From Eledone cirrhosa (lineage: Eukaryota), in NCBI GenBank assembly GCA_964016885.1, contig OZ024743.1, positions 75,144,001 to 75,208,000 on the forward strand: a stretch of 64,000 nt of DNA, given 5' to 3'. The translations under genes were made by a program, and so were the position numbers. Below are positions 14,701 through 64,000 of the stretch, piece after piece (within the stretch, counting starts at the first letter, position 1; each line of letters opens with the position of its first letter). The notes below the pieces were generated by a model. It was not told the DNA's origin. It did not search any database and was given only the letters and a program-made list of their open reading frames with translations.

Positions 14701-15006
14701 TTCCAGTAGCCGGGTCCTCGTCTATGAAGCCTATCTAAGTCAAGCACACAGATCACGAATTTGTGGTCCGTGTAGCTGACTATCTTGAATTGTGGACAGC
14801 CTATGCTAGACCAATCTATTTCCCTACAAAATACTCTATCTAGATATGATCTGGATGACCCTATGCGGTTTGTCCAAGTCCACATTAGCACATTCGGGAA
14901 ATCCAATCGGTACCTGTCAGACAGTTCAAAACGCCTGAGCAGGTTGGTGAGGCTCTTGCACCCTCCACCCCTATCCGCTAATCCCACACAGTCCCAGCGT
15001 GCATCT
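11762..15006 (-). mobile_element. L1/Tx1-clade LINE, 5'-truncated within the endonuclease
   Basis: AATAAA just before an (ATT)n 3' flank; GC content well above surroundings; uninterrupted ORF. Confidence 0.88.
12024..15006 (-). CDS. L1/Tx1-type ORF2 (partial APE, RT, CCHC), open for about 990 aa
   Basis: SYLDRVF, YTDHKFV, GYWKLN, KSPGLDGLP, FRPITLLN, LDQSKAFDRV, VRQGCPLS, AYADDV, CPRC...ETVLHALVQC. Confidence 0.9.
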
Positions 15007-15112
15007 AATAATAATAACGACAACAACAATAATAATATACATATTCATATATATATACACACACGCACGCACATAAGCATATCTACACACACACAAACAC
15101 ACACGATAGCAA

Positions 15113-18100
15113 CTAACAGTGCTGCGATCGAATGTAGCTTTTTAGCCCAGCCAATGATCTAAAATGTCTTGCACAGAGTCGGCAACCAAAACATTCACTG
15201 GGAGTAGCCGGCTGTGGTTGGAGTTCGTGTACTTTTGCATGTCGCTTGAGCCCTCCTGCTGATTTACATTCTCTACCACATGTTTGGCAAGCATGATGAG
15301 TAGCATCTCCAACAGCAGCCTGGTAGTCAACCACTGGTCTTACTTTATGACTGCGAAGATGACTTTCGAGTCCAGCTTTGCTTAGGCAGAGTCTCGCACA
15401 GACGCTGCATGTCAGCACCATAGGAGGACCCTCGCCGTCTGGAAGTGCAACAGCAATGCCCTTCCTCACATCCCGCTTTACTTTCTCGTATGCGATTCGA
15501 GATGCCTCAAAGGCAACTTTTCCCTCATATACAGTCTTTCTCCATTTATTACGATCAGCAGCAATATTTTTCCCATGTATCAGCAGAGATGTTAGCGTCT
15601 TTCAGAGAGGCTTTCAAGGAATCCTTATACCTCTTTTTTGGTTTATGTGGCGGTCGTTTTCCTTTAACCAACTCTCCATAAAAGAGTTGTTTTGGTATTC
15701 TAGAATCCTTCATCCTGGCAAGGTGACCACTCCAACGGAGTCGTTGCTTAAGCACAAGAGCTTCTATACTGTCACACATAGAGCTTTCCAAAATCTCGAC
15801 ATCACTGATGTGGTCCCTCCAGTGAACGCCATGGATCCGTCTGAGACACATCTGATGGAAACGCTCCAATTGCTTAAGGTGGTGTCGATATGTGACCCAG
15901 GTCTCGCAGGCATAAAGAAGACAAGAGAGTACACATGCCCTGTACACCCTTACCTTTGTCCTCCTGCATATGTCTCGCCGACCCCAGAGTCGCCTTTCTA
16001 GCTTTCCGAAAGCATCACTTGCTTTCCTAATCCTAAGTGAGATTTCACCGTCAAGGTTGCCGTATCGATTGACAGTGCTTCCCAACTAGACAAACTGATC
16101 AACCACTCCAAGTTGTTTGCCATACACATAGATGTTTGGTTCAGTGTACTGCTTACCAGGGGCAGGTTGGTACATGACGACGGTTTTCTTGAGACTGATA
16201 GTCAAACCCAGGGCAGTGCAAGCGTCAGAAAATGCATTCAAAATGTGCTGCATATCACTCTCTGTGTGCGCTACAAGATCGCAATCATCTGCATACAAGA
16301 GGTCTCTTATGATTGATGTAAACACCTTTGTCTTCGCAGCAAAGCGCCTGATGTTAAATATGCTGCCTGAGGTTCGATATCGGATGTAAACACCATGCTC
16401 GCAATTCCTGAATGCAATACAGAAAACCATTGCTAAGTATATGGCAAACAGGGTCGGTGCTGGAATATCCCCCTGTTTCACTCCATTTTTTACTGAGATA
16501 GGCTCCGACATGTTACCTCCGACATTAACCCAAGCCTTCATGTCGTCATGGAAAGACCTAACTAAAGCAAGGAACTTATCAGGGCAACCAAGTTTCTGGA
16601 GAACCTTCCATAATGCATCTCTGTTGACAGTATCGAAAGCCTTTGTCAGATCGACAAAAACCTGATACAGATCCAAGCCTTGTTCAATGCACTTCTCCTG
16701 GAGCTGTCTAGCTGAGAAGATCATATCAGTAGTGCCGCGTCCAGCACGAAAACCAGATTGACTTTCAGGAAGAACACAATCTGCAATGTGTGTCAGCAGA
16801 CGGTCCAGAAGCACCCTACATAAAACTTTCCCTACGACAGAAAACAATGATATACCTCTGTAGTTCCCACAATCATTCCTGTTACCCTTTCCCTTGTACA
16901 AGACCACCATTACTGCATCTCTCCAGTCCTCATGTACGGATTCATTAGCCCATATCCTTCCAAACAAAGAGTGCAGATGTTGCAGGAGTCTCTCACCACC
17001 ATATTGTAGGAGCTCAGCATGTATGCCATCCATACCTGGAGATCTTCCACTGTTCAGCTTCGAAATAGCCACTGCAACCTCCACAAGCGTCGGAGGTTCT
17101 GCGAGAGCTACTTTCACAGGACTTTCTGGAATGAGATTGAGGAAATCTTCACTGACGACAGACGGCTGATTCAAAAGATCATCAAAGTGCTCTCGCCACC
17201 TTCGTAGAATTCCCTGTGAGTCACGAAGAAGTTCTTTGCCATCCTTGCTGCGAAGCGGTGTCACCAGAGAAGAAGACGGTCCATAAACCTCACGCAAGAG
17301 ACTGTACAACAGCTTTGTGTTATTGGAATCAGACGCAGTTTGTATCTCACCAACCTTCTCACTCCACCACTGATCCTTCATCTGAGAAAGACTCCGCCTA
17401 ACACGTGATTTTACATCCCAGAGCTCCTCATGCAACGTATTCCTCTCCTGTGGTTTTGCCGTCAAGTAGCGTGACAGAGCACGCCTCTTATCAGCCAACA
17501 AGTCTTCTATATGTACATCATTCTCATTAAACCAGTCCTGATGTTTTCTCTGCACCAATCCCAGAACACGCCTGCCTACATCATAAACCGACTTTTTAAG
17601 GGTCGGCCAATCCTCACCAAGATCTGCAGCCTGCATCTCTTCTTCCAATGTCCTCTTCACATTTTTATCCTTAAGACGAGCAGCATTCAATCTTTTGGGC
17701 AGGGTAACACCAGGAGCCCGGATTTTACGTTTGGTGATTAGTTTCACTTTTGCGCGTACCAGGCGGTGGTCCGTCCAGCACTCAGCTCCACGAAGAACAC
17801 GAACACACTGCACATCCTGTCTGTCACGCATCCTGACTAGGACGTAGTCCAAAAGATGCCATTCCTTAGATGCAGGATGCATCCATGTGGTCTTGAATTT
17901 GTTCTTTTGTTGGAACATGGTTTTGGTAACACACAGATCCAGCTCCTCACACATCTGCAGCAGGAGCATACCATTGCTGTTACACTTTCCCACCCCATGC
18001 CTTACGATTACATTCCATGTGTTAAAATCCCTACCCACTCTAGCATTAAAGTCACCAAGCACGATGACTTTGTCTGCCTGAGGGATATTTCTTAGAACAC

Positions 18101-18600
18101 CTTTCAAGGCATGGTAAAAGGACAGTTTTTCTTCATCGACAGAATTCATAGTTGGAGCATACACACTCACCAGGGTAGCATATCTTCCTTTGTCCAGCGG
18201 AACTCTCATGGACATAAGACGCTCACTAATCCATACTGGGAATTCTTCTAATTTATTCACAAGTACAGTCTTAACAGCAAATCCTACCCCAGCCTCTCTT
18301 CTGGTTCCTTCATCTCTTCCTTTCCAGAAGAATGTATATTCTCCACAAAATTCCGTAAGATGACCATCTCCAGCTAACCTCGTCTCAGATAAAGCCACGA
18401 TGTCAAGATCGTAAAGTCGAAGCTCCTTTGCAACAAGAGCGGTCCTTCGTTCAGGACGCTCCAAGGAATCCCTGTCAAGCAGTGTCTGTACGTTCCAGCA
18501 GCCAAGACTAAATGCCTTGTTTGGCTCTATTACAATGGCACGATGACGAGCGGGCCCAGGCTGTGATAACTTGGGGCCCCTGCCCTTATTGCCAATGATC
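15113..18600 (-). pseudogene. RTE ORF (APE endonuclease, RT, three C2H2 fingers), disrupted
   Basis: GCWNVQTL, ALSETRL, VLGDFNARVG, LLDYVLV, WTDHRLV, QSGFR, FVDLTKAFDTV, GVKQGD, LYADD. Relative to copy 1 it has a TAC>TAG stop at 16086 and a 1-bp insertion near 15567-15571. Confidence 0.92.
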
Positions 18601-18731
18601 TTTTTTGTTCCAGAACCTAAATTGCCAATGATCTTTTTTGTTCCAGAACCTAAATTGCCAATTATCTCTTTTACATTGTTCTGGAACATCATTGAATTGG
18701 AAAAAAAAAAAAAAAAAAAAAAAAAGTAATA

Positions 18732-18782
<51 letters not shown>

Positions 18783-19352
18783 GTACACTATTAATAATTA
18801 TTAATGCACTCGTGCAATGCCTGTGCGTGACGAACATTTTTAAAGTGAGGAAAGACTGTGCACTGAGCCAATCCCACTCTCTGAGCGACAGTAGCTATAA
18901 CCCGAAAAGAAGAAAAGATCAACATCATCGGTAACTACTGAGCCGCAGGTTTTATATCGGAGTTATCCCAGTTTCCTGAGATGCCTTCTCCTAGAAGAAT
19001 GCCCTGATAAGGGCTAGGGGTTCTTCACTCCCAGTGGTTTAACTGCGCGATCGGGCATCCAGCCCGATTATTTCTATGTCCCCGCGCCAAAAAAAAAAAA
19101 AACTCACTTATTGACACTTATACGTACGACATACACACACACGCATACATATGCGCGCACACAGCAACACATACATATAAACAAACACACACACACACGC
19201 TACTCTACTCACTTACACGCACACACACACATATATATATATATTACCGTCATTACTGATACAAGATACATACATACATACATACATACATACATACATA
19301 CATACATACATACATACATACATACATACATACATACATACATACATACATA

Positions 19353-25414: not shown

Positions 25415-25812
25415 AAGTCCGTCTACATGGGGCAGATAACATCATGAGAGTTGAGAAGGAGTTTCTTGAGAAATACTTCCTGAAAGACGACCAAAACCTC
25501 ACCCCCAGGGAATTTGCACAACAACTGCAGGGAATAAGACGACCAAAAACTCACCCCCAGGGAACTTGCACAACAACTGCAAGGAATAAGACGACCAAAA
25601 ACTCACCCCCAGGGAACTTGCACAACAACTGCAAGGAATAAGACGACCAAAAACTCACCCCCAGGGAACTTGCACAACAACTGCAAGGAATAAGACGACC
25701 AAAAACTCACCCCCAGGGAACTTGCACAACAACTGCAGGGAATTAGAGGAGGAAAAGTTATCAGTTTATCAAGAGGTCTTGCATGACTTTGTTGCCAGAA
25801 AGCTTCAAGGTG
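25415..25812 (+). mobile_element. R4/Dong-like fragment containing a 52-bp x5 minisatellite
   Basis: DNIMRVEKEFLEKY and HDFVARKLQ align with DKIMRVGKELLGRY and HGYVARKLQ of ORF 19975-20736; repeat at 25483-25743. Confidence 0.75.
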
Positions 25813-27125: not shown

Positions 27126-27278
27126 AACAAGGAGGAAAAGATTTAAATCAACAAATAACAGTAGATTTTTAACTTTGTTCCTGGATGTTGTGCTCTCCCA
27201 TTGATAACCTAAGAAATCGAGAAATTGAAATTGCGGGTTCTGTAACAAATCAGAAATACAGTGTATATATTTCCAAGT

Positions 27279-29951
27279 AGGCGAATTGGTAGAGTCGCGA
27301 GAACGTCAGATAGAATAGTTTGTGGTATTGGTAGAGTCGTTAGAACGTCAGATAGAATAGGCTGTGGTATTGGTAGAGTCGTTAGAACGTCAGATAGAAT
27401 AGTTTGTGGTATTGGTAGAGTCGCGAGAACGTCAGATAGAATAGTTTGTGGTAATGGTAGAGTCGTTAGAACGTCAGATAGAATAGTTTGTGGTATTGGT
27501 AGAGTCGTTAGAACGTCAGATAGAATAGTTTGTGGTATTGGTAGAGTCGTTAGAACGTCAGATAGAATAGTTTGTGGTATTGGTAGAGTCGTTAGAACGT
27601 CAGATAGAATAGTTTGTGGTATTGGTAGAGTCGTTAGAACGTCAGATAGAATAGTTTGTGGTAATGGTAGAGTCGTTAGAACGTCAGATAGAATAGTTTG
27701 TGGTATTGGTAGAGTCGCGAGAACGTCAGATAGAATAGTTTGTGGTATTGGTAGAGTCGTTAGAACGTCAGATAGAATAGTTTGTGGTATTGGTAGAGTC
27801 GTTAGAACGTCAGATAGAATAGTTTGTGGTATTGGTAGAGTCGTTAGAACGTCAGATAGAATAGTTTGTGGTATTGGTAGAGTCGTTAGAACGTCAGATA
27901 GAATAGTTTGTGGTATTGGTAGAGTCGTTAGAACGTCAGATAGAATAGTTTGTGGTATTGGTAGAGTCGTTAGAACGTCAGATAGAATAGTTTGTGGTAT
28001 TGGTAGAGTCGTTAGAACGTCAGATAGAATAGTTTGTGGTATTGGTAGAGTCGCGAGAACGTCAGATAGAATAGTTTGTGGTAATGGTAGAGTCGTTAGA
28101 ACGTCAGATAGAATAGTTTGTGGTATTGGTAGAGTCGTTAGAACGTCAGATAGAATAGTTTGTGGTATTGGTAGAGTCGTTAGAACGTCAGATAGAATAG
28201 TTTGTGGTATTGGTAGAGTCGTTAGAACGTCAGATAGAATAGTTTGTGGTATTGGTAGAGTCGCGAGAACGTCAGATAGAATAGTTTGTGGTAATGGTAG
28301 AGTCGTTAGAACGTCAGATAGAATAGTTTGTGGTATTGGTAGAGTCGTTAGAACGTCAGATAGAATAGTTTGTGGTATTGGTAGAGTCGTTAGAACGTCA
28401 GATAGAATAGTTTGTGGTATTGGTAGAGTCGCGAGAACGTCAGATAGAATAGTTTGTGGTAATGGTAGAGTCGTTAGAACGTCAGATAGAATAGTTTGTG
28501 GTATTGGTAGAGTCGTTAGAACGTCAGATAGAATAGTTTGTGGTATTGGTAGAGTCGTTAGAACGTCAGATAGAATAGTTTGTGGTATTGGTAGAGTCGT
28601 TAGAACGTCAGATAGAATAGTTTGTGGTATTGGTAGAGTCGTTAGAACGTCAGATAGAATAGTTTGTGGTATTGGTAGAGTCGTTAGAACGTCAGATAGT
28701 ATAGTTTGTGGTATTGGTAGAGTCGTTAGAACGTCAGATAGAATAGTTTGTGGTATTGGTAGAGTCGTTAGAACGTCAGATAGAATAGTTTGTGGTATTG
28801 GTAGAGTCGTTAGAACGTCAGATAGAATAGTTTGTGGTATTGGTAGAGTCGCGAGAACGTCAGATAGAATAGTTTCTGGTATTGGTAGAGTCGTTAGAAC
28901 GTCAGATAGAATAGGCTGTGGTATTGGTAGAGTCGCGAGAACGTCAGATAGAATAGTTTGTGGTATTGGTAGAGTCGTTAGAACGTCAGATAGAATAGGT
29001 AGTGGTATTGGTAGAGTCGCGAGAACGTCAGATAGAATAGGCTGTGGTATTGGTAGAGTCGTGAGAACGTCAGATAGAATAGGCTGTGGTATTGGTAGAG
29101 TCGTTAGAACGTCAGATAGAATAGGTTGTGGTAAGGGTAGAGTCGTTAGAACGTCAGATAGAATAGTTTGTGGTATTGGTAGAGTCGCGAGAACGTCAGA
29201 TAGAATAGGCTGTGGTATTGGTAGAGTCGCGAGAACGTCAGATAGAATAGTTTGTGGTATTGGTAGAGTCGTTAGAACGTCAGATAGAATAGTTTGTGGT
29301 ATTGGTAGAGTCGTTAGAACGTCAGATAGAACAGTTTGTGGTATTGGTAGAGTCGTTAGAACGTCAGATAGAACAGTTTGTGGTATTGGTAGAGTCGTTA
29401 GAACGTCAGATAGAACAGTTTGTGGTATTGGTAGAGTCGTTAGAACGTCAGATAGAATAGTTTCTGGTATTGGTAGAGTCGTTAGAACGTCAGATAGAAC
29501 AGTTTGTGGTATTGGTAGAGTCGTTAGAACGTCAGATAGAATAGTTTCTGGTATTGGTAGAGTCGTTAGAACGTCAGATAGAACAGTTTGTGGTATTGGT
29601 AGAGTCATTAGAACGTCAGATAGAATAGTTTCTGATATTGGTAGAGTCATTAGAACGTCAGATAGAACAGTTTGTGGTATTGGTAGTCTTAAAACGTCAG
29701 ATAGAACAGTTTGTGATATTGGTAGAGTCGTTAGAACGTCAGATAGAATGGTTTGTGATATTGGTAGAGTCATTAGAACGTCAGATAGAATATTTTGTGG
29801 TATTGGTAGAGTCGTTAGAACGTCAGATAGAATGGTTTGTGATATTGGTTTCAGCTCTCTGCTCTCTGCGTTTAAATCCTGCCGAGGTCAAATTTGCCTT
29901 TCATCCATTCAATGTCGATAAAAAAAGTACCAGTCAAGTACTGGGTCGATT
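27279..29951 (+). mobile_element. SINE expanded internally by a 42-bp satellite
   Basis: Starts GGCGAATTGGTAGAGTCG. After the array: degenerate B box GCGTTTAAATCC, then GCCGAGGTCAAATTTGCCTTTCATCC...GTCGATAAAAAAAGTACCAG. Confidence 0.8.
27287..29846. repeat. 42-bp satellite array 1 (about 61 units)
   Basis: Unit TGGTAGAGTCGTTAGAACGTCAGATAGAATAGTTTGTGGTAT. Confidence 0.98.
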
Positions 29952-30496
29952 CTTCCTCTATATTTATTTCTCGCTTGTATTCTATCACTCACTTTATCCT
30001 TCTTTGAAAGAAATCTGCTGTATTGATACCTGAAGAGGAGATGGGCTCCGTCAGGTTTAAAAATACCCTAGAAACACTGTATGTCAATGTGGCGCCCCTA
30101 CGACTCCCTCAGGTGTTACGAGACCATACATGTTTCCATGTGAACAATTGACTCCAGCGATTCATGGCGGATTTATGGGGGGTTTTTTTAATAAAGCTGG
30201 TTCAACAATCCAGATGTTAGGTCAGCTTTGTTCTGCTAAAACCTACATAGACGTCCTCCATATATGTCTCTGTGTCCAGAGACATATGAGGAGAATATGT
30301 ATCTACACAGACCTTTCTAGAACAAAGATGCCGTAAAACTGGATTGCCGAACCACACTTAAAACGCTAAAACTCACTCTGAGAACTAAAGTTGTCAGATT
30401 GGAACTAAACTAGTAGATTATGCTACTTTTCAGGTTGCACATGACTTTTGTTTTTCTTTTAAATTGGCTACTTACTACATTTGGGCTTACGTATTA

Positions 30497-31080: not shown

Positions 31081-31176
31081 GGTATAATAATGTCAACCGA
31101 AACTTGTTAATAACAGTTTATATCTTCAGATCACCAAAGTCTCAACAAGCTACTTTTTATCCCAGTTATTTCATAT

Positions 31177-31555
31177 CTATACTCATTTATCAATGAGAAA
31201 TTGTTCAATGTGAGACAAAAATATTTATACTCATTTATCAATGAGAAATTGTTCAATGTGAGACAAAAATATTTATACTCATTTATCAATGAGAAATTGT
31301 TCAATGTGAGACAAAAATATTTATACTCATTTATCAATGAGCAATTGTTCAATGTGAGATAAAAATAATTATACTCATTTATCAATGAGCAATTGTTCAA
31401 TGTGTGATAAAAATATTTATACTCATTTATCAATGAGCAATTTTTCAATGTGTGATAAAAATATTTATGTTCATTTATCAATGAGAAATTGTTCAATGTG
31501 TGATAAAAATATTTATGTTCATTTATCAATGAGAAATTGTTCAATGTGAGATAAA
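31177..31555. repeat. 48-bp minisatellite, about 8 units
   Basis: TATACTCATTTATCAATGAGAAATTGTTCAATGTGAGACAAAAATATT. Confidence 0.95.
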
Positions 31556-32289
31556 AAGAATCAAAATTTGTGGCTCATTGATCTGCGTTTGTTTTTTATT
31601 GAGTGAGAGAGGTGAGTAAATTAATGTGTGATAGTCATAAAGCATTTTCTATTATAGCTTAGTTAGAATGAAAGGTAGTGTCCATGACACTTTCAGAACC
31701 TACAACATTGGTATTGGTATGGGAGGGAATGTATCAGCAAACTGGAGATCTAGAACGAAATGTTTGCACAGAGCGGATTCTGTTAAAGGCATCCAACGTC
31801 CAGTTGATGATGTTTAATAAAATTCACAAAATTGATTTAACAAATCATGCTTCTCCAGTTAAAGGGGAAAATCACGATAAACTCTTAAAACATTATTTTC
31901 TTCAGTAAAAAAATAACAGAATTAGAACTACAGTTAATAACATTTCTAGATTATTGAGCATATATTAGTAGCGTTGGTCATTTGGGACAACTTATTAAGA
32001 AATGAGATTGTTCGTGTTCCATTAAACTGAAAAGACAAAAAGGCATGACACTTAAAAGACATTTTATTGTTCCATCCTTACTGGAAAAGTAAATTGAAGA
32101 CATAATTAAAAGTCAGTTATTGATTCTGGTCGAATCAATGTATATTGCTAGTGAATAGCATCTGTGTGTGTACGTGTGTGTACGTGTGTGTATGTGTGTG
32201 TACGTGTGTGTATGTGAGGAATTTCAATAAACAACAAAGTTATATTGTATTACAGGTGGTCTAAAACAGTCTAAAGTCTGTCTCGATCT

Positions 32290-32654: not shown

Positions 32655-33068
32655 GCCAAAACATTTCGAAGGGAGGGCAAAGATAATTGAATCAAACCTA
32701 TTGCTTGACTGGTGATTTATTTTAGTGACCCTGGAAGAATGGAAAAGATGACCATCGCATAATTTGAACTCAGGACAGACACTGTAATGGCATTTTATAC
32801 GACGTTCTACCAATTCTGTCAATATACCCCACTCCTCTATATGTGAACTGATAAGGGTTTCTTATTTAGGAACAGGCCAACAATTTTGGGGGAGCAGAAA
32901 GTCAATTAAACCGATTCCAGTGCATTACTGGTACTTTATTTTATCGATCTCGTAACGATGAAAGGCAAAGCTAACCTCAGCAGGATTGTAACTCAGATCG
33001 TAAAAGGCCGTAACTCTATGCCATAAAGTATGTTGTCAAACGCTCTACTGATCCCTCAATCCACTGCC
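32655..33068 (-). mobile_element. Two diverged SINE copies (Meta-SINE-like)
   Basis: AATTTGAACTCAG and GATGAAAGGCAAAG motifs. Confidence 0.7.
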
Positions 33069-35925: not shown

Positions 35926-36268
35926 GGGTTAGGGTTATGGTTAGGGTTAGGGTTAGGGTTAGGGTTAAGGTTAGGGTTAGGGTTAGGGTTAGGATTAGGG
36001 GTAGGGTAAGGGTTAGGGTTAGGGTTACGGTTAGGGTTAGGGTTAAGGTTAGGGTTAGGGTTAGGGTTAGTGTTAGGGTTAAGGTTAGGGTTAGGGTTAG
36101 GGTTAGGATTAGGGGTAGGGTTAGGGTTAGGGTTACGGTTAGGGTTAGGGTTAGGGTTAAGGTTAGGGTTAGGGTTAGGGTTAGTGTTAAGTTTAGCGTT
36201 ACGGTTAGGGTTAGGGTTAAGGTTAGGGTTAGGGTTAGTGTTAAGGTTAAGTTTAGGGTTAGGGTTAG
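35926..36268 (+). repeat. Interstitial telomeric (TTAGGG)n with variants
   Basis: About 57 hexamers including TTAAGG, TTACGG, TTAGTG and TTAGGA variants. Confidence 0.95.
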
Positions 36269-37900: not shown

Positions 37901-38147
37901 TTAATAGCTCTACAGAATTAAAACAGTTATGGTCAGTTTATCAAGCTGTTTTATAAGCAATATAGATTTACTTAATAGCTCTACAGAACTAAAACAGTTA
38001 TGGTCAGTTTATCAAGCTGTTTTATAAGCAATATAGATTTACTTAATAGCTCTACAGAACTAAAACAGTTATGGTCAGTTTATCAAGCTGTTTTATAAGC
38101 AATATAGATATACTTAATAGCTCTACAGAACTAAAACAGTTATGGTC
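37901..38147. repeat. 71-bp tandem repeat, about 3.5 units
   Basis: TTAATAGCTCTACAGAA recurs at 37901, 37972, 38043 and 38114. Confidence 0.95.
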
Positions 38148-38629
38148 GTTTATTTTGTTGTGTTATCTTTGCGTGGTTCCTAGCAATGGTTGACTATATT
38201 TATGATATGTCTTATATTGTGAGGTTCCTGGCAATAATTAATTGTATTTATTATGTTTATATTTGTGTTTATATTTTTAGAGCCTATCATCCCCTTCTGC
38301 CTCTCTTTCATCTGTGGCTCAAGTGTATTGCTTTTTTCCTCCCTTTCCTCTCATTATGATATTTATAATCCTTTCCTCTACTTCTCCATACAGTCAGATC
38401 TGCTCTTCTTTACCCCTTACCCCTTTTATAATTACTTAATTTTGTTTTTATCTCTCTTTTTCATATTAATGTAATTATCAATGGTTTTTAAGACAATTTT
38501 GTGAGTGAAACACAAGATTTGTAATGTTATTTATACAACTGGGAATAAAATGAACATCTTCCCATTTGTAATGTCATACAAATGTTAATAAAATAAAAAG
38601 ATTGTGAACTTCTGTCTGTGTTTAAAACC

Positions 38630-39690: not shown

Positions 39691-39854
39691 CAAATTTTTT
39701 ATCTATCATTCAGATCTTGGTCCTAGCTAAACCGAGTCACTTTACACAATGAATCTACTTTCACCTGCAGAAGAAAACCAGCTCAGATCTGTTGGTTTGT
39801 TCCACCACCACCTTTTTCTTTTCTTTCTTTCGCTCTAGTCATATATATTGGTGT

Positions 39855-40970
39855 GTTATTGTTGTGAGGTTCCCAGCAATAGTTGATTGTATTTATTATA
39901 TATGTTATAGTTGTGAGGTTCCTAGCAATAGTTAGTTGTATTTATTATATATGTTATAGTTGTGAGGTTCCTAGCAATAGTTAGTTGTATTTATTATATA
40001 TGTTATAGTTGTGAGGTTCCCAGCAATAGTTAGTTGTATTTATTATATATGTTATAGTTGTGAGGTTCCTAGCAATAGTTGACTGTATTTATTATATATG
40101 TTATATTTGTGAGGTTCCTAGCAATAGTTGACTGTATTTATTATATATGTTATAGTTGTGAGGTTCCTAGCAATAATTAGTTGTATTTATTATATATGTT
40201 ATATTTGTGAGGTTCCTAGCAATAGTTAGTTGTATTTATTATATATGTTATAGTTGTGAGGTTCCTAGCAATAGTTAGTTGTATTTATTATATATGTTAT
40301 ATTTGTGAGGTTCCTAGCAATAGTTGACTGTATTTATTATATATGTTATAGTTGTGAGGTTCCTAGCAATAGTTAGTTGTATTTATTATATATGTTATAG
40401 TTGTGAGGTTCCTAGCAATAGTTAGTTGTATTTATTATATATGTTATATTTGTGAGGTTCCTAGCAATAGTTGACTGTATTTATTATATATGTTATAGTT
40501 GTGAGGTTCCTAGCAATAGTTAGTTGTATTTATTATATATGTTATATTTGTGAGGTTCCTAGCAATAGTTGACTGTATTTATTATATATGTTATAGTTGT
40601 GAGGTTCCTAGCAATAGTTGACTGTATTTATTATATATGTTATAGTTGTGAGGTTCCTAGCAATAGTTGACTGTATTTATTATATATGTTATAGTTGTGA
40701 GGTTCCTAGCAATAGTTAGTTGTATTTATTATATATGGTATAGTTGTGAGGTTCCTAGCAATAGTTAGTTGTATTTATTATATATGTTATAGTTGTGAAG
40801 TTTCTAGCAATAGTTGACTGTATTTATTATATATGTTATAGTTGTGAGGTTCCTAGCAATAGTTGACTGTATTTATTATATATGTTATAGTTGTGAGGTT
40901 CCTAGCAATAGTTAGTTGTATTTATTATATATGGTATAGTTGTGAGGTTCCTAGCAATAGTTAGTTGTAT
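39855..40970. repeat. 49-bp minisatellite, about 23 units
   Basis: TGTGAGGTTCCTAGCAATAGTTAGTTGTATTTATTATATATGTTATAGT; two degenerate related units at 38160-38260. Confidence 0.97.
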
Positions 40971-42223: not shown

Positions 42224-42227
<4 letters not shown>

Positions 42228-42600
42228 GTTTCTACTTTAGGCACAAGGCCAGCAATTACCCAGTGCATTACTGGTACTTTATTTTATCGACCCCGTAAGG
42301 ATGAAAGGCAAAGTCAACCTCGGCGGGATTTGAACTCAGATCGTAAAGGGACGTAACTATGCTGAAAAGCATGGCGTCCGACCCTCCACCGATACTGCCA
42401 ATCCACCGTTATTATATATATTTGGCAGTATCGGTAGAGGGTCGGACGCCATGCTTTCCAGCATAGTTACGTCCCTTTACGATCTGAGTTCAAATCCCGC
42501 CGAGGTTGACTTTGCCTTTCATCCTTACGGGGTCGATAAAATAAAAGTACCAGTAATGCACTGGGTATTTGTTGGCCTTGTGCCTAAAGTAGAAACAATT
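42224..42600. mobile_element. Head-to-head inverted pair of SINEs
   Basis: 42224-42402 is nearly the exact reverse complement of 42423-42600. Confidence 0.92.
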
Positions 42601-48735: not shown

Positions 48736-49847
48736 GTTAGAATATGTGTAATAAGGCCAAGACGATGCAGATATGGACATAGAAAAAAGAATGCAATAGT
48801 GAAAGATATTGATGAGAATTCGTCTTTCACCTTGAATTTATTTAAATGTCCTTAATTTTCGAGATAATATCTCTTCTTCGGAGGGAAGTAAAAGTCTCAG
48901 ACCAGCGTCTAAATTTCCAATGAAGCCATGCTGACCGGAAATAGTATAGAGTTCTAACTTTAATATCAAAGAATTAAAATTAGGTGGGTAAAGAGTAGTC
49001 TCCCTTTAAGAGGGGTTTGTTTATGTTTTTGTTGTGTTTTTTTAAATTTTATATGCGTGCCTGTATATGTGTGTGGGAGAAAGCATGAAGGTGTAGGTAT
49101 GTGGGTGTGTGTGTGTGAGTGTGGGAAGATAGGTCTAATCGTAAAAGTGGGGGGTAGGTGTTATCTGGTGTTAGAACTGGTTTTGTGTGTGTATGTGTGA
49201 GAGAGAATAAGTGGAGGTGTGCGCGTGCGTGTGTGTGGGGTGTGTAAAGTGGGGCTAGAGGCCCTATCAGGTTATAAATTGGGTGTTGAGCTCTAGTCTA
49301 TTATTGATTGGTGGATGTGTTCTATCTATAATGAGTGCTTCCTTGATTCTAAGATTGCCGAGGTTTCTTTCCTTAGTTTCTATCCTAACTGTTATGTTTT
49401 TATCAGTGTTTTTGCATTTAACTAGGTGTTTCTTAAATGAGGAAGCGTTAGTATTGAGGTGTTCTTTTATTCTTATGTGGAGTGGTCTGGTGGTGCTACC
49501 TACGTAGAAGTTGTTGCATTTGTCACACTCTAGTCTGTAAACTACGTAAGCCTGGTGGCATAGGTCTATGTCGTTGATGGGGCAGTTGGCTAGTCTGCAG
49601 CAGTTGTCATGTCTGGTGGAGTGTCTCTTAGCTAGCCGTCCACGCAAAGAAGGACCCGAATGGGCCAGTTGAATATCCAGACCTTCTCGTCTGATGGCTC
49701 TGCGGATGGCTGTTGTTGTTTCTTCACTGAAGTGTGGGAGCTTCAGGAAGCAAGTGTTAGTGCCTCGGTGTGGTGTCCTCTGTTCTTTCTGGCACGGTTT
49801 GTGGTGGATGTCGTGTATCCGTTCAGTTTGAGTACTATAACCTCCTC

Positions 49848-49850
<3 letters not shown>
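48735..49850 (-). mobile_element. Penelope-like element 3' fragment (GIY-YIG endonuclease and pLTR)
   Basis: YVVYRLECDKCNNFYVGSTTRPLHIRIKEH...KEALII...PPINN; hammerhead-like CCGAAGA-A-GAGAT/ATCTC-GAAA at about 48850-48882; (TA)n on both sides. Confidence 0.85.
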
Positions 49851-49921
<71 letters not shown>

Positions 49922-49975
49922 CGGCGATGAATTAGTTTTGCGAGGTTTTTTATATGAAATCGTGTGTCGAAACAA

Positions 49976-55439: not shown

Positions 55440-58400
55440 GGCGAACTGTCAGAGTCGTTAGAACGTCAGATAGAATGGTAGGGTGGTTAGAACGTCTGAT
55501 AGAGTGGTAGAGTGGTTAGAACGTCAGATAGAATGGTAGAGTGGTTAGAACGTCAGATAGAATGGTAGAGTGGTTAGAACGTCAGATAGAATGGTACAAT
55601 GGTTAGAACGTCAGATAGAATGGTAGAGTCGTTAGAATGTCAGGTAGAATGGTAGAGTCGTTAGAAGGTCAGATAGAATGGTAGAATTGTTAGAACGTCA
55701 GATAGAATGGTAGAGTGGTTAGAACGTCAAATAGAATAGTTTGTGATATTGGTAGAGTGGTTAGAACGTCAGATAGAATGGTTTGTGGTATTGGTAGAGT
55801 GGTTAGAACGTCTGATAGAGTGGTAGAATGGTTAGAGTCAGATAGAATGGTAGAGTCGTTAGAATGTCAGATAGAATGGTAGAGTCATTAGAAGGTCAGA
55901 TAGAATGGTAGAGTATTTAGAACGTCAAATAGAATAGTTTGTCATATTGGTAGAGTGGTTAGAAGGTCAGATAGAATGGTTTGTGGTATTGGCAGAGTGG
56001 TTAGAACGTCAGATAGAATGGTTTGTGGTATTGGTAGAGTGGTTAGAACGTCAGATAGAATATATTGTGGTATTGGTAGAGTCCTTAGAACGTCAGATAG
56101 AATAGTTTGTGGTATTGGTAGAGTCCTTATAACGTGAGATAAAATAGTTTGTGGTATTGGTAGAGTCGTTAGAACGTCAGATAGAACAGTTTGTGGTATT
56201 GGTAGAGTCCTTAGAACGTCAGATAGAATAGTTTGTGGTATTGGTAGAGTCCTTAGAACGTCAGATAGAATAGTTTGTGATATTGGTAGAGTCATTAGAA
56301 CGTCAGATAGAATAGTTTGTGGTATTGACAGAGTCGTTAGAACGTCAGATAGAATAATTTGTGGTAATGGTAGAGTGGTTAGAAAGTCAGATAGAATAGT
56401 TTGGTATTGATTGGTAGAGTCGTTATAACGCCAAATAGAATAGTTTGTGGTATTGGCAAAGTCGTTATAACGCCAGGTAGAACAGTTTGTGGTATTGGTA
56501 GATTCGTTAGAACGTCAGATAGAATAGTTTGTAGTAATGGTACAGTCTTTAGAACGTTAGATAGAGTTATTTGTGGTATTGGTAGAGTCGATAGAACGTC
56601 AGATAGAATAGTTTGTGTTATTGGTAGAGTGGTTAGAACGTCACATAGAATAGTTTGTGGTATTGGTAGAGTCTTTAGAACGTCAGATAGAATAGTTTGT
56701 GATATTGGTAGAGTCGTTAGAACGTCATATATTAGTGTTTGTGGTATTGGTAGAGTCGTTAGAACGTCAGATAGAATAGTTTGTGATATTGGTAGAGTCT
56801 TTAGAACGTCAGATAGAATAGTTTGTGATATTGGTAGAGTCGTTAGAACGTCAGATAGTAGTGTTTGTGGTATTGGTAGAGTCGTTAGAACGTCACATAG
56901 AGTAGGTTGTGGTATTGGTAGAGTCGTAAAACGTAAGATAGAACAGTTTGTGATATTGGTAGAGTCATTAGAACGTCAGATAGAATAGGCTGTGGTATTG
57001 GTAGAGTCGATAGAACGTCAGATAGAATAGTTTGTGGTATTGGTAGAGTCGTAAAACGTAAGATAGAACAGTTTGTGATATTGCAAGAATCGTTAGAACG
57101 TCAGATAGAATACCTTGTGTTATTGGTAGAGTCGTTAGAACGCCAGATAGAATAGTTTGTGGTATTGGTTTAGTCGTTAGAACGTCAGATAGAATAGTTT
57201 GTGTTATTGGCAGAGTCGTTAGAACGTCAGATAGAATAGTTTGTGGTATTGGTAGAGTGATTAGAACGTCAGATAGAACAGTTTGTGGTATTAGTAGAGT
57301 CGTTAGAACGTCAGATAGAACAGTTTGTGGTATTAGTAGAGTCGTTAGATCGTCAGATAGAACAGTTTGTGGTATTAGTAGAGTCGTTAGAACGTCAGAT
57401 AGAATAGTTTGTGGTATTGGTAGAGTGATTAGAACGTCAGATAGAACAGTTTGTGGTATTAGTAGAGTCGTTAGAACGTCAGATAGAATAGTTTGTGGTA
57501 TTGGTAGAGTGATTAGAACGTCAGATAGAACAGTTTGTGGTATTAGTAGAGTCGTTAGAACGTCAGATAGAACAGTTTGTGGTATTAGTAGAGTCGTTAG
57601 ATCGTCAGATAGAACAGTTTGTGGTATTGGTAGAGTCGTTAGAACATCAGATAGAACAGTTTGTGGTATTGGTAGAGTGATTAGAACGTCAGATAGAACA
57701 GTTTGTGGTATTAGTAGAGTCGTTAGAACGTCAGATAGAATAGTTTGTGGTATTGGTAGAGTGATTAGAACGTCAGATAGAACAGTTTGTGGTATTAGTA
57801 GAGTCGTTAGAACGTCAGATAGAACAGTTTGTGGTATTAGTAGAGTCGTTAGATCGTCAGATAGAACAGTTTGTGGTATTGGTAGAGTCGTTAGAACATC
57901 AGATAGAACAGTTTGTGGTATTGGTAGAGTGATTAGAACGTCAGATAGAACAGTTTGTGGTATTAGTAGAGTCGTTAGAACGTCAGATAGAACAGTTTGT
58001 GGTATTAGTAGAGTCGTTAGAACGTCAGATAGAAGAGTTTGTGGTATTAGTAGAGTCGTTAGAACGTCAGATAGAATAGTTTGAGATATTGGTAGAGTCG
58101 TTTGAACGTCAGATAGAATAGTTTGTGGTATTGGTAGAGTGATTAGAACGTCAGATAGAACAGTTTGTGGTATTAGTAGAGTCGTTAGAACGTCAGATAG
58201 AACAGTTTGTGGTATTAGTAGAGTCGTTAGAACGTCAGATAGAATAGTTTGAGATATTGGTAGAGTCGTTAGAACGTCAGATAGAATAGTTTGTGGTATT
58301 GGTAGAGTGATTAGAACGTCAGATAGAACAGTTTGTGGTATTGGTAGAGTGATTAGAACGTCAGATAGAACAGTTTGTGGTATTAGTAGAGTCGTTAGAA

Positions 58401-61400
58401 CGTCAGATAGAACAGTTTGTGGTATTAGTAGAGTCGTTAGAACGTCAGATAGAATAGTTTGAGATATTGGTAGAGTCGTTAGAACGTCAGATAGAATAGT
58501 TTGTGGTATTGGTAGAGTGATTAGAACGTCAGATAGAACAGTTTGTGGTATTAGTAGAGTCGTTAGAACGTCAGATAGAATAGTTTGAGATATTGGTAGA
58601 GTCGTTAGAACGTCAGATAGAATAGTTTGTGGTATTGGTAGTGTCGTTAGAACGTCAGATAGAACAGTTTGTGGTATTCGTAGAGTCGTTAGAACGTCAG
58701 ATAGAATAGTTTGTGGTATTGGTAGAGTCGTTAGAACGTCAGATAGAACAGTTTGTGGTATGCGTAGAGTCGTTAGAACGTCAGATAGAACAGTTTGTGG
58801 TATTCGTAGAGTCGTTAGAACGTCAGATAGAACAGTTTGTGGTATTCGTAGAGTCGTTAGAACGTCAGATAGAACAGTTTGTGGTATTGGTAGAGTCGTT
58901 AGAACGTCAGATAGAATAGGCTGTGGTATTGGTAGAGTCGTTAGAACGTCAGATAGAACAGTTTGTGGTATTAGTAGAGTCGTTAGAACGTCAGATAGAA
59001 TAGTTTGAGATATTGGTAGAGTCGTTAGAACGTCAGATAGAATAGTTTGTGGTATTGGTAGAGTGATTAGAACGTCAGATAGAACAGCTTGTGGTATTGG
59101 TAGAGTGATTAGAACGTCAGATAGAACAGTTTGTGGTATTAGTAGAGTCGTTAGAACGTCAGATAGAACAGTTTGTGGTATTAGTAGAGTCGTTAGGACG
59201 TCAGATACAATAGTTTGTGGTATTGGTAGAGTGATTAGAACGTCAGATAGAACAGTTTGTGGTATTAGTAGAGTCGTTAGAACGTCAGATACAATAGTTT
59301 GTGGTATTGGTAGAGTGATTAGAACGTCAGATAGAACAGTTTGTGGTATTAGTAGAGTCGTTAGGACGTCAGATAGAACAGTTTGTGGTATTAGTAGAGT
59401 CGTTAGAACGTCAGATAGAACAGTTTGTGGTATTAGCAGAGTCGTTAGAACGTCAGATAGAATAGTTTGAGATATTGGTAGAGTCGTTAGAACGTCAGAT
59501 AGAATAGTTTGTGGTAATGGTAGAGTCGTTAGAACGTCAGATAGAATAGTTTGTGGTATTGGTAGAGTGATTAGAACGTCAGATAGAACAGTTTGTGGTA
59601 TTAGTAGAGTCGTTAGAACGTCAGATAGAACAGTTTGTGATATTAGTAGAGTCGTTAGAACGTCAGATAGAATAGTTTGAGATATTGGTAGAGTCGTTAG
59701 AACGTCAGATAGAATAGTTTGTGGTATTAGTAGAGTCGTTAGAACGTCAGATAGAACAGTGTGTGGTATTGGTAGAGTCGTTAGAACGTCAGATAGAACA
59801 GTTTGTGGTATTAGTAGAGTCGTTAGAACGTCAGATAGAATAGTTTGTGGTATTAGTAGAGTCGTTAGAACGTCAGATAGAACAGTGTGTGGTATTGGTA
59901 GAGTCGTTAGAACGTCAGATAGAACAGTTTGTGGTATTAGTAGAGTCGTTAGAACGTCAGATAGAATAGTTTGTGGTAATGGTAGAGTCGTTAGAACGTC
60001 AGATAGAATAGTTTGTGGTATTGGTAGAGTGATTAGAACGTCAGATAGAACAGTTTGTGGTATTAGTAGAGTCGTTAGAACGTCAGATAGAACAGTTTGA
60101 GATATTGGTAGAGTCGTTAGAACGTCAGATAGAATAGTTTGTGGTATTAGTAGAGTCGTTAGAACGTCAGATAGAACAGTGTGTGGTATTGGTAGAGTCG
60201 TTAGAACGTCAGATAGAACAGTTTGTGGTATTAGTAGAGTCGTTAGAACGTCAGATAGAACAGTTTGTGGTATTAGTAGAGTCGTTAGAACATCAGATAG
60301 AATGGTTTGTGGTATTGGTAGAGTCGTTAGAACGTCAGATAGAATAGTTTGTGGTATTGGTAGAGTCGTTAGAACGTCAGATAGAATGGTTTGTGGCATT
60401 GGTAGAGTCGTTAGAACGTCAGATAGAATAGTTTGTGGTATTGGTAGAGTCGTTAGAACGTCAGATAGAACAGTTTGTGGTATTGGTAGAGTCGTTAGAA
60501 CGTCAGATAGAATAGTTTGTGGTATTGGTAGAGTCGTTAGAACGTCAGATAGAATGGTTTGTGGCATTGGTAGAGTCGTTAGAACGTCAGATAGAACAGT
60601 TTGTGGTATTGGTAGAGTCGTTAGAACGTCAGATAGAATAGTTTGTGGTATTGGTAGAGTCGTTAGAACGTCAGATAGAATGGTTTGTGGCATTGGTAGA
60701 GTCGTTAGAACGTCAGATAGAATAGTTTGTGGTATTGGTAGAGTCATTAGAACGTCAGATAGAATAGTTTGTGGTATTGGTAGTGTCGTTAGAACGTCAG
60801 ATAGAACAGTTTGTGGTATTCGTAGAGTCGTTAGAACGTCAGATAGAATAGTTTGTGGTATTGGTAGAGTCGTTAGAACGACAGATAGAACAGTTTGTGG
60901 TATTCGTAGAGTCGTTAGAACGTCAGATAGAATAGTTTGTGGCATTGGTAGAGTCGTTAGAGTGTCAGATAGAATAGTTTGTGGTATTGGTAGAGTCGTT
61001 AGAACGTCAGATAGAACAGTTTGTGGTATTGGTAGAGTCGTTAGAACGTCAGATAGAACAGTTTGTGGTATTCGTAGAGTCGTTAGAACGTCAGATAGAA
61101 TAGTTTGTGGTATTGGTAGAGTCGTTAGAACGTCAGATAGAATACATTGTGGTATTGGTAGAGTCATTAGAACGTCTAATAGAATAGTTTGGGGTATTGG
61201 TAGAGTCCTTAGAACGTGAGATAAAATAGTTTGTGGTATTGGTAGAGTCGTTAGAACGTCAGATAGAATACATTGTGGTATTGGTAGAGTCATTAGAACG
61301 TCTAATAGAATAGTTTGTGGTATTGGTAGAGTCCTTATAACGTGAGATAAAATAGTTTGTGGTATTGGTAGAGTCGTTAGAACGTCAGATAGAACAGTTT

Positions 61401-64000
61401 GTGGTATTAGTAGAGTCGTTAGAACGTCAGATAGAACAGTTTGTGGTATTAGTAGAGTCGTTAGAACGTCAGATAGAACAGTTTGTGGTATTAGTAGAGT
61501 CGTTAGAACGTCAGATAGAACAGTTTGTGGTATTAGTAGAGTCGTTAGAACGTCAGATAGAATAGTTTGAGATATTGGTAGAGTCGTTAGAACGTCAGAT
61601 AGAATAGTTTGTGGTATTGGTAGAGTGATTAGAACGTCAGATAGAACAGTTTGTGGTATTAGTAGAGTCGTTAGAACGTCAGATAGAATAGTTTGAGATA
61701 TTGGTAGAGTCGTTAGAACGTCAGATAGAATAGTTTGTGGTATTGGTAGTGTCGTTAGAACGTCAGATAGAACAGTTTGTGGTATTCGTAGAGTCGTTAG
61801 AACGTCAGATAGAATAGTTTGTGGTATTGGTAGAGTCGTTAGAACGTCAGATAGAACAGTTTGTGGTATTGGTAGAGTCGTTAGAACGTCAGATAGAATA
61901 GTTTGTGGTATTGGTAGAGTCCTTAGAACGTCAGATAAAATAGTTTGTGGTATTGGTAGAGTCGGTAGAACGTCAGATAAAATAGTTTGTGGTATTAGTA
62001 GAGTCATTACAACGTCAGATAGAATAGTTTGTGGTATTGGTAAAGTTTTTAGAACGTCAGATAGAATAGTTTGTGGTATTGGTAGAGTCTTTAGAACGTC
62101 AGATAGAATGGTTTGTGGTAATGGTAGAGTCGTTAGAACATCAGATAGAATAGTTTGTGGTATTGGTAGAGTCGTTAGAACGTCAGATAGTACAGTTGTT
62201 GGTATTGGTAGAGTCGTTAGAACGTCAGATAGAATAGTTTGTGGTATTGGTAGAGTCGTTAGAACGTGAGATAGAACAGTTTGTGGTATTGGTAGTGTCA
62301 TTAGAACGTGAGATAGAACAGTTTGTGGTATTCGTAGAGTCGTTAGAACCTCAGATAGAATAGTTTGTGGTATTGGTAGAGTCGTTAGAACGTTAGATAG
62401 AATAGTTTGTGGTAATGGTAGAGTCGTTAGAACGTCAGATAGAATAGTTTGTGGTATTGGTAGTGTCGTTAGAACGTGAGATAAAATAGTTTGTGGTATT
62501 GGTAGAGTCGTTAGAACGTCAGATAGAATAGTTTGTGGTACTGGTAGAGTCGTTAGAACGTCAGATAGAATAGTTTGTGATATTGGTAGAGTCGTTAGAA
62601 CGTCAGATAGAATAGTTTGTAGTAATGGTAGAGTCGTTAGAACGTCAGATAGAATAGTTTGTGATATTGGTAGATTCGTTAGAACGTCAGATAGAATGGT
62701 TTGTGGTAATGGTAGAATCGTTAGAACGTCAGATAGAATAGTTTGTGATATTGGTAGAGTCGTTAGAACGTCAGATAAAATACATTGTGGTATTGGTAGA
62801 GTCATTAGAACGTCTAATAGAATAGTTTGTGGTATTGGTAGAGTCCTTAGAACGTCAGATAGAATAGTTTGTGGTATTGGTAGAGTCCTTAGAACGTCAG
62901 AAAAAAATAGTTTTTGGTATTGGTAGAGTCGGTAGAACGTCAGATAAAATAGTTTGTGGTATTAGTAGAGTCATTACAACGTCAGATAGAATAGTTTGTG
63001 GTATTGGTAAAGTTTTTAGAACGTCAGATAGAACAGTTTGTGGTATTGGTAGAGTCTTTAGAACGTCAGATAGAGTTATTTGTGGTATTGGTAGAGTCTT
63101 TAGAACGTCAGATAGAATGGTTTGTGGTAATGGTAGAGTCGTTAGAACATCAGATAGAATAGTTTGTGGTATTGGTAGATTCGTTAGAACGTCAGATAGA
63201 ATGGTTTGTGGTAATGGTAGAGTCGTTAGAACGTCAGATAGAACAGTTTGTGGTATTAGCAGAGTCGTTAGAACGTCAGATAGAATAGTTTGAGATATTG
63301 GTAGAGTCGTTAGAACGTCAGATAGAATAGTTTGTGGTAATGGTAGAGTCGTTAGAACGTCAGATAGAATAGTTTGTGGTATTGGTAGAGTGATTAGAAC
63401 GTCAGATAGAACAGTTTGTGGTATTAGTAGAGTCGTTAGAACGTCAGATAGAACAGTTTGTGATATTAGTAGAGTCGTTAGAACGTCAGATAGAATAGTT
63501 TGAGATATTGGTAGAGTCGTTAGAACGTCAGATAGAATAGTTTGTGGTATTGGTAGAGTGATTAGAACGTCAGATAGAACAGTTTGTGGTATTAGTAGAG
63601 TCGTTAGAACGTCAGATAGAACAGTTTGAGATATTGGTAGATTCGTTAGAACGTCAGATAGAATAGTTTGTGGTATTAGTAGAGTCGTTAGAACGTCAGA
63701 TAGAACAATTTGTGGTATTGGTAGAGTCGTTAGAACGTCAGATAGAACAGTTTGTGGTATTAGTAGAGTCGTTAGAACGTCAGATAGAACAGTTTGTGGT
63801 ATTGGTAGAGTCGTTAGAACGTCAGATAGAACAGTTTGTGGTATTGGTAGAGTCGTTAGAACGTCAGATAGAATGGTTTGTGGTATTGGTAGAGTCGTTA
63901 GAACGTCAGATAGAATAGTTTGTGGTATTGGTAGAGTCGTTAGAACGTCAGATAGAATGGTTTGTGGCATTGGTAGAGTCGTTAGAACGTCAGATAGAAT
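55440..64000. repeat. SINE-head-derived satellite array 2 (29-bp units, then about 190 42-bp units; runs off the window)
   Basis: Same 42-bp unit as array 1; starts GGCGAACTGTCAGAGTCGTTAGAACG. Confidence 0.97.

What the first reader, a model, noticed from the sequence alone, without database searches (positions are those of the whole stretch)
27279..29951. Satellite apparently arising inside a SINE: about 61 copies of the A-box head upstream of a single B box and body
Seen: the array opens with a SINE-like start (GGCGAATTGGTAGAGTCG). After the last unit the sequence continues straight into the rest of the SINE found all over this window (degenerate GAGTTCAAATCC, GCCGAGGTC...TTTGCCTTTCATCC...GTCGATAAAA...GTACCAG). 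The 42-mer also resembles the head of the SINE at 32790-32822 on the minus strand (TTGACAGAATTGGTAGAACGTCGTATAAAATG). Inference: the first ~42 bp of one SINE insertion were tandemly amplified, giving a 2.6-kb array of Pol III A-box-like motifs at 42-bp spacing (about four helical turns). The GTAATGG variant recurs at 27451, 27661, 28081, 28291 and 28459 (spacings 210, 420, 210, 168), suggesting a nascent 5-mer higher-order repeat.
Basis: partly seen in the sequence, partly recalled or inferred. Interest (0 to 1): 0.75.

Follow-up and report, generated by a model that had tools for sequence, protein, structure and literature searches.

The report
Minisatellite hopping between SINE copies
A 42-base piece from the front end of a short jumping element (a SINE) is repeated 61 times inside one old copy, and the same repeat with the same rare variants sits inside three other, unrelated copies nearby, so it likely spread from copy to copy through DNA repair and likely has no function.

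Summary
The array is real: 61 copies of a 42-bp unit (27285-29849) between the 5' start and the body of one ~335-bp tRNA-type SINE. The element ends near 30131, not 29951, and belongs to a different family from the window's common SINE. It is a SINE-derived satellite, a kind described in reptiles (PMC10702118). It probably did not simply grow in place. Three more copies within 1.7 Mb carry the same unit (0-1 differences in 42) and share rare variants, including a two-base change. One of them is a 45-kb array starting at window 55440. Their bodies differ by 16-23%, like random copies, and their flanks are unrelated. Arrays were therefore likely copied between resident SINE copies by ectopic recombination; the founder is not identified. 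The same head also seeds 29- and 101-bp arrays, so the 42-bp spacing is not special. This copy's B box has lost its conserved C. The 5-mer higher-order repeat is weak (p=0.015 before correcting for 9 periods). No function is supported. This scan has already noted SINE-head arrays in this genome many times, including the 45-kb neighbour and the copy-to-copy idea.

The parts
27264..27278 (+). candidate left target-site duplication (12 of 15 identical to 30127-30141)
   Evidence: score not significant alone (p=0.2), position as expected; the family has TSDs (20 of 48 single copies score >=9 against 11 of 600 shuffled pairs)
27280..27284 (+). 5' start of the host SINE, outside the repeated unit
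27285..29849 (+). array A1: 61 head-to-tail copies of the 42-bp SINE head segment (A-box region); mean 2.5% from its own majority unit
29850..30131 (+). body and tail of the host SINE, 8.6% diverged from its subfamily majority
29870..29878 (+). single B box, GTTTAAATC; the conserved C of GTTC is changed to T
   Evidence: 59 of 82 single copies keep GTTC, 8 have GTTT; B-box consensus recalled
29880..29935 (+). central core shared with the window's common SINE family
30127..30141 (+). candidate right target-site duplication
55440..64000 (+). start of sister array A2 in another copy of the same SINE: native head, about 14 29-bp units mixed with early 42-bp units, then ~1,070 42-bp units; it continues 37 kb past the window to that copy's body

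Best explanation
This is a minisatellite of 61 copies of the 42-bp head of an old tRNA-type SINE, lying between that copy's own start and body, and it was likely copied between resident SINE copies of the neighbourhood by ectopic DNA repair rather than grown from this insertion alone; it likely has no function. Steps: (1) Shown: an old SINE copy with its own flanks and a candidate TSD. (2) Inferred: in one founder copy, slippage between short repeats 42 bp apart (ATT in the family, ATTGGT in this copy) duplicated the head, and unequal exchange expanded it. (3) Inferred from shared variants: a break in or near another copy's head was repaired on an array-bearing copy. The shared head and body served as homology arms (synthesis-dependent annealing or template switching; reinsertion of a DNA circle is not excluded), so a multi-unit block moved while the recipient kept its own body and flanks. 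(4) Shown: each array has since gained private variants and local block duplications. The direction of transfer is not resolved. A2 is the likeliest source (most diverse, with a 29-to-42-bp transition zone), and A1 is the alternative (longest seed repeat).
For: Majority units of A1-A4 (C4, 75.17-76.85 Mb) differ at 0-1 of 42 positions in 6 of 6 pairs. Single heads differ at 6.7 of 42 on average, with 1 of 231 pairs at <=1. Among 28 local single hits 0 of 378 pairs are at <=1 and none is closer than 3 to the unit; a few of these hits are misaligned or belong to the sister family. The four bodies differ at 16-23% of columns, against 20% for other subfamily copies, and share derived sites only at background level. 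Flanks share only dispersed repeats. The two-base variant GC at unit positions 34-35 occurs in all four arrays, first within the leading 2-11% of each, and all 19 genome matches to that variant pattern lie in A1-A4. 4 of the 5 adjacent double changes in A4 also occur in A1 or A2. Under vertical descent about 8-12 private fixed differences are expected and at most 1 is seen (rough P 0.003 to 0.00005). A5, A6 and A8 on C10 differ from A1 at 3-5 positions and share no exact unit with it. In 4 of 9 29-bp arrays (B2, B3, L101, A2 5' end) the first unit keeps ancestral letters while the interiors are near-identical across contigs. At the array-body junction of A3, 11 bases equal an inverted piece of the unit, as template switching would leave. 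Minisatellites cover 33% of 1.11 Mb around the window.
Against: The body tree is star-like and does not reject one clade for A1-A4 (p-AU 0.116; 1 starred branch of 48). A2-A4 were first found by searching with A1's own sequence, which favours look-alikes. Some variants recur at distant loci: the CG change of A1 is also in A8 on C10, and A7, 160 Mb away on C4, mixes exact A1-type units with another type. So either exchange is not only local or some variants arise repeatedly. The first units of A1 and A3 already carry the array's derived letters, which needs a tract starting within about 5 bases of the boundary or later homogenisation. A1, A2 and A3 share the B-box C-to-T change, which could reflect common ancestry. 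No transfer was observed directly and no empty allele was seen.
Confidence: 0.72

Rival explanations
1. Each array was born in place by slippage in its own SINE head, in a region prone to tandem amplification. Neighbouring arrays were homogenised afterwards by gene conversion, or converged by recurrent mutation.
For: The region is 33% minisatellite. Arrays with distinct units exist elsewhere: A5, A6, A8 and host-like 29-bp arrays B1, L063, L064. A1 has a 6-bp seed repeat found in only 4 of 82 single copies. A1's last unit keeps the ancestral G at position 32.
Against: It needs four separate births of the same 42-bp period among about 40 head-bearing copies in 1.53 Mb scanned, while only four other 42-bp arrays were found in 3.0 Gb (a lower bound). 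Without later exchange it cannot explain the identical units and shared double variants.
Confidence: 0.17
2. An array-bearing SINE copy was duplicated or retrotransposed long ago, and the four loci are its descendants.
For: One clade of bodies is not rejected (p-AU 0.116). All four fall in one loosely supported subfamily. Three share a B-box change.
Against: The flanks are not homologous. The bodies are as far apart as random copies while the units, including edge units of A1 and A3, are nearly unchanged. A 2.6-45-kb template with internal heads is unlike a SINE transcript (inference).
Confidence: 0.05
3. The array is a functional platform of Pol III A boxes, phased at four helical turns, that binds TFIIIC or makes small RNAs.
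For: 56 of 60 units match a relaxed A-box pattern (pattern recalled).
Against: TFIIIC binding rests mainly on the B box (established knowledge, recalled), and the only B box here has lost its conserved C. The period varies among arrays from the same head (29, 42, 101), copy number ranges from 3 to over 1,000, and a tail segment without any promoter box is amplified the same way in L018. No tRNA or Rfam family (one single-head copy) is recognised.
Confidence: 0.04
4. The sharing between arrays, or the array itself, is an assembly artefact.
For: Short-read contigs do not span the array or its 3' junction, so its length is not independently confirmed.
Against: Each array has private variant patterns. 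The window has no N. A short-read contig matches the 5' flank and first unit (27130-27328) without a difference, and others match the body and 3' flank; these runs may come from the assembled sample.
Confidence: 0.02

Closest known systems
SINE-derived satellites (sSat1-3) of squamate reptiles, Vassetzky, Kosushkin and Ryskov 2023, PMC10702118 (parts 1-4 of 5 of the text read)
   Same: Tandem units taken from part of a tRNA-derived SINE, with SINE termini kept at the array ends. Arrays run from a few to about 1,000 units, long arrays are homogeneous, subvariants alternate, and one variant is shared by many loci.
   Different: Units here are shorter (42, 29 bp against about 70-290) and cover the A-box part only. 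Both SINE ends are kept, a minor form in that paper. The cluster lies 75 Mb inside a 379-Mb contig, not at an end. In the parts read, the paper invokes unequal recombination and concerted evolution but does not compare host bodies with units to show transfer between resident copies.
Spread of Rsp-like satellite into 1.688 clusters in Drosophila simulans and D. mauritiana, Sproul et al. 2020, PMC7403614 (12 passages read)
   Same: A rare repeat spreads to new loci using homology with an abundant resident repeat. Interlocus gene conversion, template switching or circle reinsertion are proposed.
   Different: The landing site here is a dispersed retroposon and the moving repeat derives from that same retroposon. 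No circles or contact data were examined here.
Transposon-derived minisatellites of the human genome, Ahmed and Liang 2012, PMC3389668 (6 passages read), citing Jurka and Gentles 2006 and Haber and Louis 1998 (seen only as cited there)
   Same: Birth of a minisatellite between short direct repeats inside a SINE; multilocus arrays exist.
   Different: Most of those are short and single-locus; arrays here reach 45 kb and share polymorphisms between unrelated hosts.
Tandem SINE structures of the bivalve Scapharca broughtonii, PMC11481361 (section 15 and 4 passages read)
   Same: A mollusc SINE array with an intact head first and an intact tail last.
   Different: Those are 4-15 near-whole elements; here a 42-bp head piece is repeated 61 times.

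Membership tests
SINE-derived satellite (sSat, PMC10702118) | Tandem unit is a part of a SINE, shorter than the SINE | tested here: met
   The 42-bp unit differs from the majority single head at 4 of 42 positions; the family is ~335 bp long
SINE-derived satellite (sSat, PMC10702118) | At least four middle monomers, with terminal units continuing into SINE sequence | tested here: met
   61 units; start at 27280, body to 30131
SINE-derived satellite (sSat, PMC10702118) | Found at several loci with homogeneous units | tested here: met
   At least eight 42-bp arrays, A1-A8
SINE-derived satellite (sSat, PMC10702118) | Subtelomeric preference | tested here: not met
   A1-A4 lie at 75-77 Mb of a 379-Mb contig; a tendency, not a defining rule, in that paper; a TTAGGG tract lies 6 kb from A1
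tRNA-derived SINE | Dispersed copies with shared ends, simple-repeat tail and target-site duplications | tested here: met
   shared 5' and 3' ends, CATA-type tail, TSD signal in 20 of 48 single copies
tRNA-derived SINE | A and B boxes in the head | tested here: met
   B box GTTC intact in 59 of 82 single copies and TGGC A-box start in 63 of 82 (consensus recalled); this copy's B box is mutated
tRNA-derived SINE | Head traceable to a named tRNA; Pol III transcription | tested here: inconclusive
   No ARAGORN hit in the window and no Rfam tRNA hit for one single copy; transcription not testable here
MetaSINE / Ceph-SINE / RTE-bipartite superfamilies | Central domain matching the published domain | tested here: inconclusive
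   Core motifs were not found in the supplements searched (PMC4824008, one of two files; PMC5786205); no superfamily is assigned
Higher-order repeat satellite | A multi-unit block repeated more faithfully than its monomers along the array | tested here: not met
   Lag-5 z=-2.0 in units 1-37; spacing test p=0.015 uncorrected over 9 periods; blocks of 5, 5 and 4 units only

The most novel reading that the evidence does not exclude
The SINE family works as a genome-wide set of landing pads for a satellite that homes without an enzyme of its own. Once a head array exists, repair between SINE copies copies it into other resident copies: locally first (four 42-bp arrays in 1.7 Mb, a fifth mosaic array 160 Mb away) and genome-wide for the 29-bp form (10,063 junction matches, with native edge units and shared interiors on at least four contigs). 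This would explain how one SINE-derived satellite variant comes to occupy many loci without retrotransposition.
Probability: 0.45. Interest if true: 0.6.

Novelty: new variant of a known kind. Interest (0 to 1): 0.35.

Why it matters
SINE-derived satellites are known, so the array alone is ordinary. What this locus adds is a clean test of how satellites reach new sites. Each host SINE carries its own old mutations, which act as a barcode of the landing site, so a foreign array inside a native body can be recognised and counted. If the transfer reading holds, dispersed retroposons both seed satellites and spread them, and the distance, direction and rate of spread can be measured from one assembly plus a few more individuals.

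Tried and rejected
Hairpin as cause of the hotspot: rejected. 40 of 56 natural heads folded as DNA give mean z -0.4, and two array units fold at only -1.9 kcal/mol. Coding role: the array is open for about 890 codons on both strands, but 60% of shuffled units are also open on both strands, A2 carries stops and frameshifts, and the plus frame has no ATG before residue 835; the Pfam hits to LbR_Ice_bind and Galaxin_repeat are read as low-complexity matches. Segmental duplication: flanks are not colinear. Body tree: unresolved. MetaSINE identity, first recalled from memory: not supported by the supplement searched. Expression: no RNA holder listed. Short-read contigs and RAD reads could not span the array or show an empty allele. 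A clustering probability computed on six loci was dropped after A7 and A8 were found. The census is incomplete: 251 kb between A3 and A4 (76.387-76.638 Mb) were not scanned, 27 forward and up to 17 reverse junction matches remain unplaced, the 3' end of A7 was not seen, and A8 escapes the pattern, so more arrays exist. Paper searches returned no paper on cephalopod SINE-head satellites or on arrays moving between SINE copies; the library lacks most subscription journals, and supplements of PMC10702118 were not read.

Full report
Setting. The window is G000:C4:75144001-75208000 of a 3.0-Gb animal genome. That it is an octopus is recalled from the SINE core motif and stated in an earlier scan note; no call of mine names the organism. 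No host gene was seen. Of 58 open frames of at least 120 codons before 55400, I scanned 8: four hit reverse transcriptase, one GIY-YIG, two nothing, and one was the array itself.

The observation. TRF reports 61.1 copies of 42 bp at 27285-29849 with 95% matches. All intervals are 42 bp except one of 39 bp. The array starts 5 bases after a SINE start at 27280 and runs into a SINE body. The element ends near 30131. It belongs to a ~335-bp family whose shared 5' end, 3' end and CATA-type tail appear in the 30 loci. The 11 other SINE hits in the window share only the central core. The family has target-site duplications (20 of 48 single copies score at least 9, against 11 of 600 shuffled pairs); this copy has a 12-of-15 candidate at the expected place that is not significant by itself.

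Other arrays. The same head is amplified at many loci. 42-bp arrays: A2 (window 55440 to C4:75,245,057, about 1,080 units, beginning with about 14 units of 29 bp), A3 (C4:75.98 Mb, 22 units), A4 (C4:76.84 Mb, 116), A5 (C10:30.72 Mb, 9), A6 (C10:44.55 Mb, 67), A7 (C4:237.55 Mb, at least 38) and A8 (C10:43.59 Mb, about 32). The 29-bp tandem junction has 10,063 exact matches, and a 101-bp unit of head plus unrelated sequence fills all four stretches sampled at C1:318.17-318.40 Mb. Among 30 heads sampled on C1 by a strict pattern, 2 carried 29-bp arrays and none a 42-bp array. In 1.53 Mb scanned around the window there were 40 single-head hits (28, 12; about 6 look like the sister family), four 42-bp arrays and one 29-bp array. 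That density would mean roughly 75,000 copies genome-wide (inference).

In place or transferred? The majority units of A1, A2 and A4 are identical, and A3 differs at one site that is polymorphic in all four. This unit differs from the majority single head at four sites. Single heads differ from each other at 6.7 of 42 sites in the sample found by likeness to this body (22 heads), and at 3.3 in the sample found by a strict head pattern (18 heads, biased low). The bodies of A1-A4 differ at 16-23% of columns, as other subfamily copies do (20%), and share derived sites at background level; the first 20 columns of A2 and A3 are misaligned by deletions, which inflates their values. Flanks share only dispersed repeats. 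The arrays also share polymorphisms. A two-base change (GC) is in 5, 2, 3 and 7 units of A1-A4, first near the 5' edge each time, and all 19 matches to its pattern fall in these arrays. 4 of A4's 5 adjacent double changes recur in A1 or A2. Sharing of single changes with A2 counts for little, since A2 has 259 unit types. Vertical descent predicts 8-12 private fixed differences against at most 1 seen (rough estimate). The 29-bp arrays show the same signature: B2, B3, L101 and the start of A2 have ancestral letters in the first unit and near-identical interiors, while B1, L063 and L064 look host-derived. Against a simple local story: the body tree is unresolved and does not reject one clade; A7, 160 Mb away, holds exact A1-type units mixed with another type; and A1's CG change recurs in A8. 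Exchange therefore reaches further than neighbours, or some variants recur.

Mechanism. Birth by slippage between short repeats follows the model cited in PMC3389668. The family head has ATT at both ends of the 42-bp segment and this copy has ATTGGT; only 4 of 82 single copies show the longer match. Spread by repair on a homologous template follows PMC7403614. An inverted 11-base copy of the unit at A3's array-body junction fits template switching but is one case. These steps are inferred. The founder is not identified: A2 has the most diverged 5' zone and a 29-to-42-bp transition, and A1 has the best seed repeat.

Function. The units match a relaxed A-box pattern (56 of 60) and none a strict one, which the family head also fails (patterns recalled). 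The single B box reads GTTTAAATC, while 59 of 82 single copies keep GTTC. Periods of 29, 42 and 101 bp from one head, an array from the tail in L018 and 33% minisatellite cover in the surrounding 1.11 Mb argue for a mutational process. The proposed 5-mer is a local block duplication: spacing p=0.015 uncorrected over 9 periods. Open reading frames through the array are expected by chance.

Comparison and verdict. It meets the tested defining features of SINE-derived satellites (PMC10702118) except the subtelomeric tendency. It works like the Rsp-like invasion of 1.688 clusters without being a member of that system. Seven paper searches found no report for cephalopods or of transfer between SINE copies. 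Earlier notes of this scan describe sibling arrays, including A2, and propose copy-to-copy passage. I had first read the arrays as independent; those notes led me to test transfer, and the tests above are my own. Verdict: real, a known kind with a well-supported but inferred spreading mechanism; interest 0.35.

Noticed in passing
window 55440-64000, continuing to G000:C4:75,245,057: Sister array A2, 45.5 kb, with 29-bp units at its 5' end and long internal block repeats (about 33 units).
   Followed up: yes
window 35926-36268: Interstitial telomere-type tract, GGGTTA x57 at 86% match, just after a repeat fragment with a GAA tail; 75 Mb from the contig start.
   Followed up: no
window about 42224-42600: Two copies of the common SINE head-to-head in inverted orientation, about a dozen bases apart and nearly identical: a palindrome.
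   Followed up: no
window 12024-15044 and 16086-18797 (minus), 49267-50022 (minus): Long open frames with reverse transcriptase (1,006 codons with zf-RVT; 903 codons with endonuclease) and a GIY-YIG frame, probably LINE and Penelope-like elements.
   Followed up: partly
window 54692-55318, 39854-40970, 31173-31557, 25484-25747, 52802-53090, 37901-38153: Further minisatellites with 17-, 49-, 48-, 52-, 37- and 71-bp units; the 17-mer ends about 120 bp before A2.
   Followed up: no
G000:C1:318.17-318.40 Mb (L074-L077) and L110: 101-bp satellite made of the same SINE head plus unrelated sequence; also abundant in RAD reads of other samples.
   Followed up: partly
L072 8329-10000, L073 (C1:2.70-2.73 Mb) and genome-wide: 29-bp arrays from the same head: 10,063 junction matches; the C1 array abuts a 48-bp satellite.
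   Followed up: partly
L018 (C23:22.85 Mb): A 31-bp segment of the same SINE's tail is tandemly repeated at least nine times.
   Followed up: no
L035 (A3 array-body junction) and L036 (A4): A3 has an inverted 11-base copy of the unit replacing the start of the body. A4 has a deletion in its first head and a body cut by another repeat.
   Followed up: partly
G000:C4:75.59, 75.76 and 75.85 Mb (L178-L213): A 37-kb and a 95-kb array of 28-bp units, and 40-45-bp arrays that resemble the head of the window's common SINE family.
   Followed up: no
L266 (C4:237.55 Mb): Array A7 is a mosaic of two 42-bp unit types, one identical to an A1-A4 variant; its 3' end was not fetched.
   Followed up: partly
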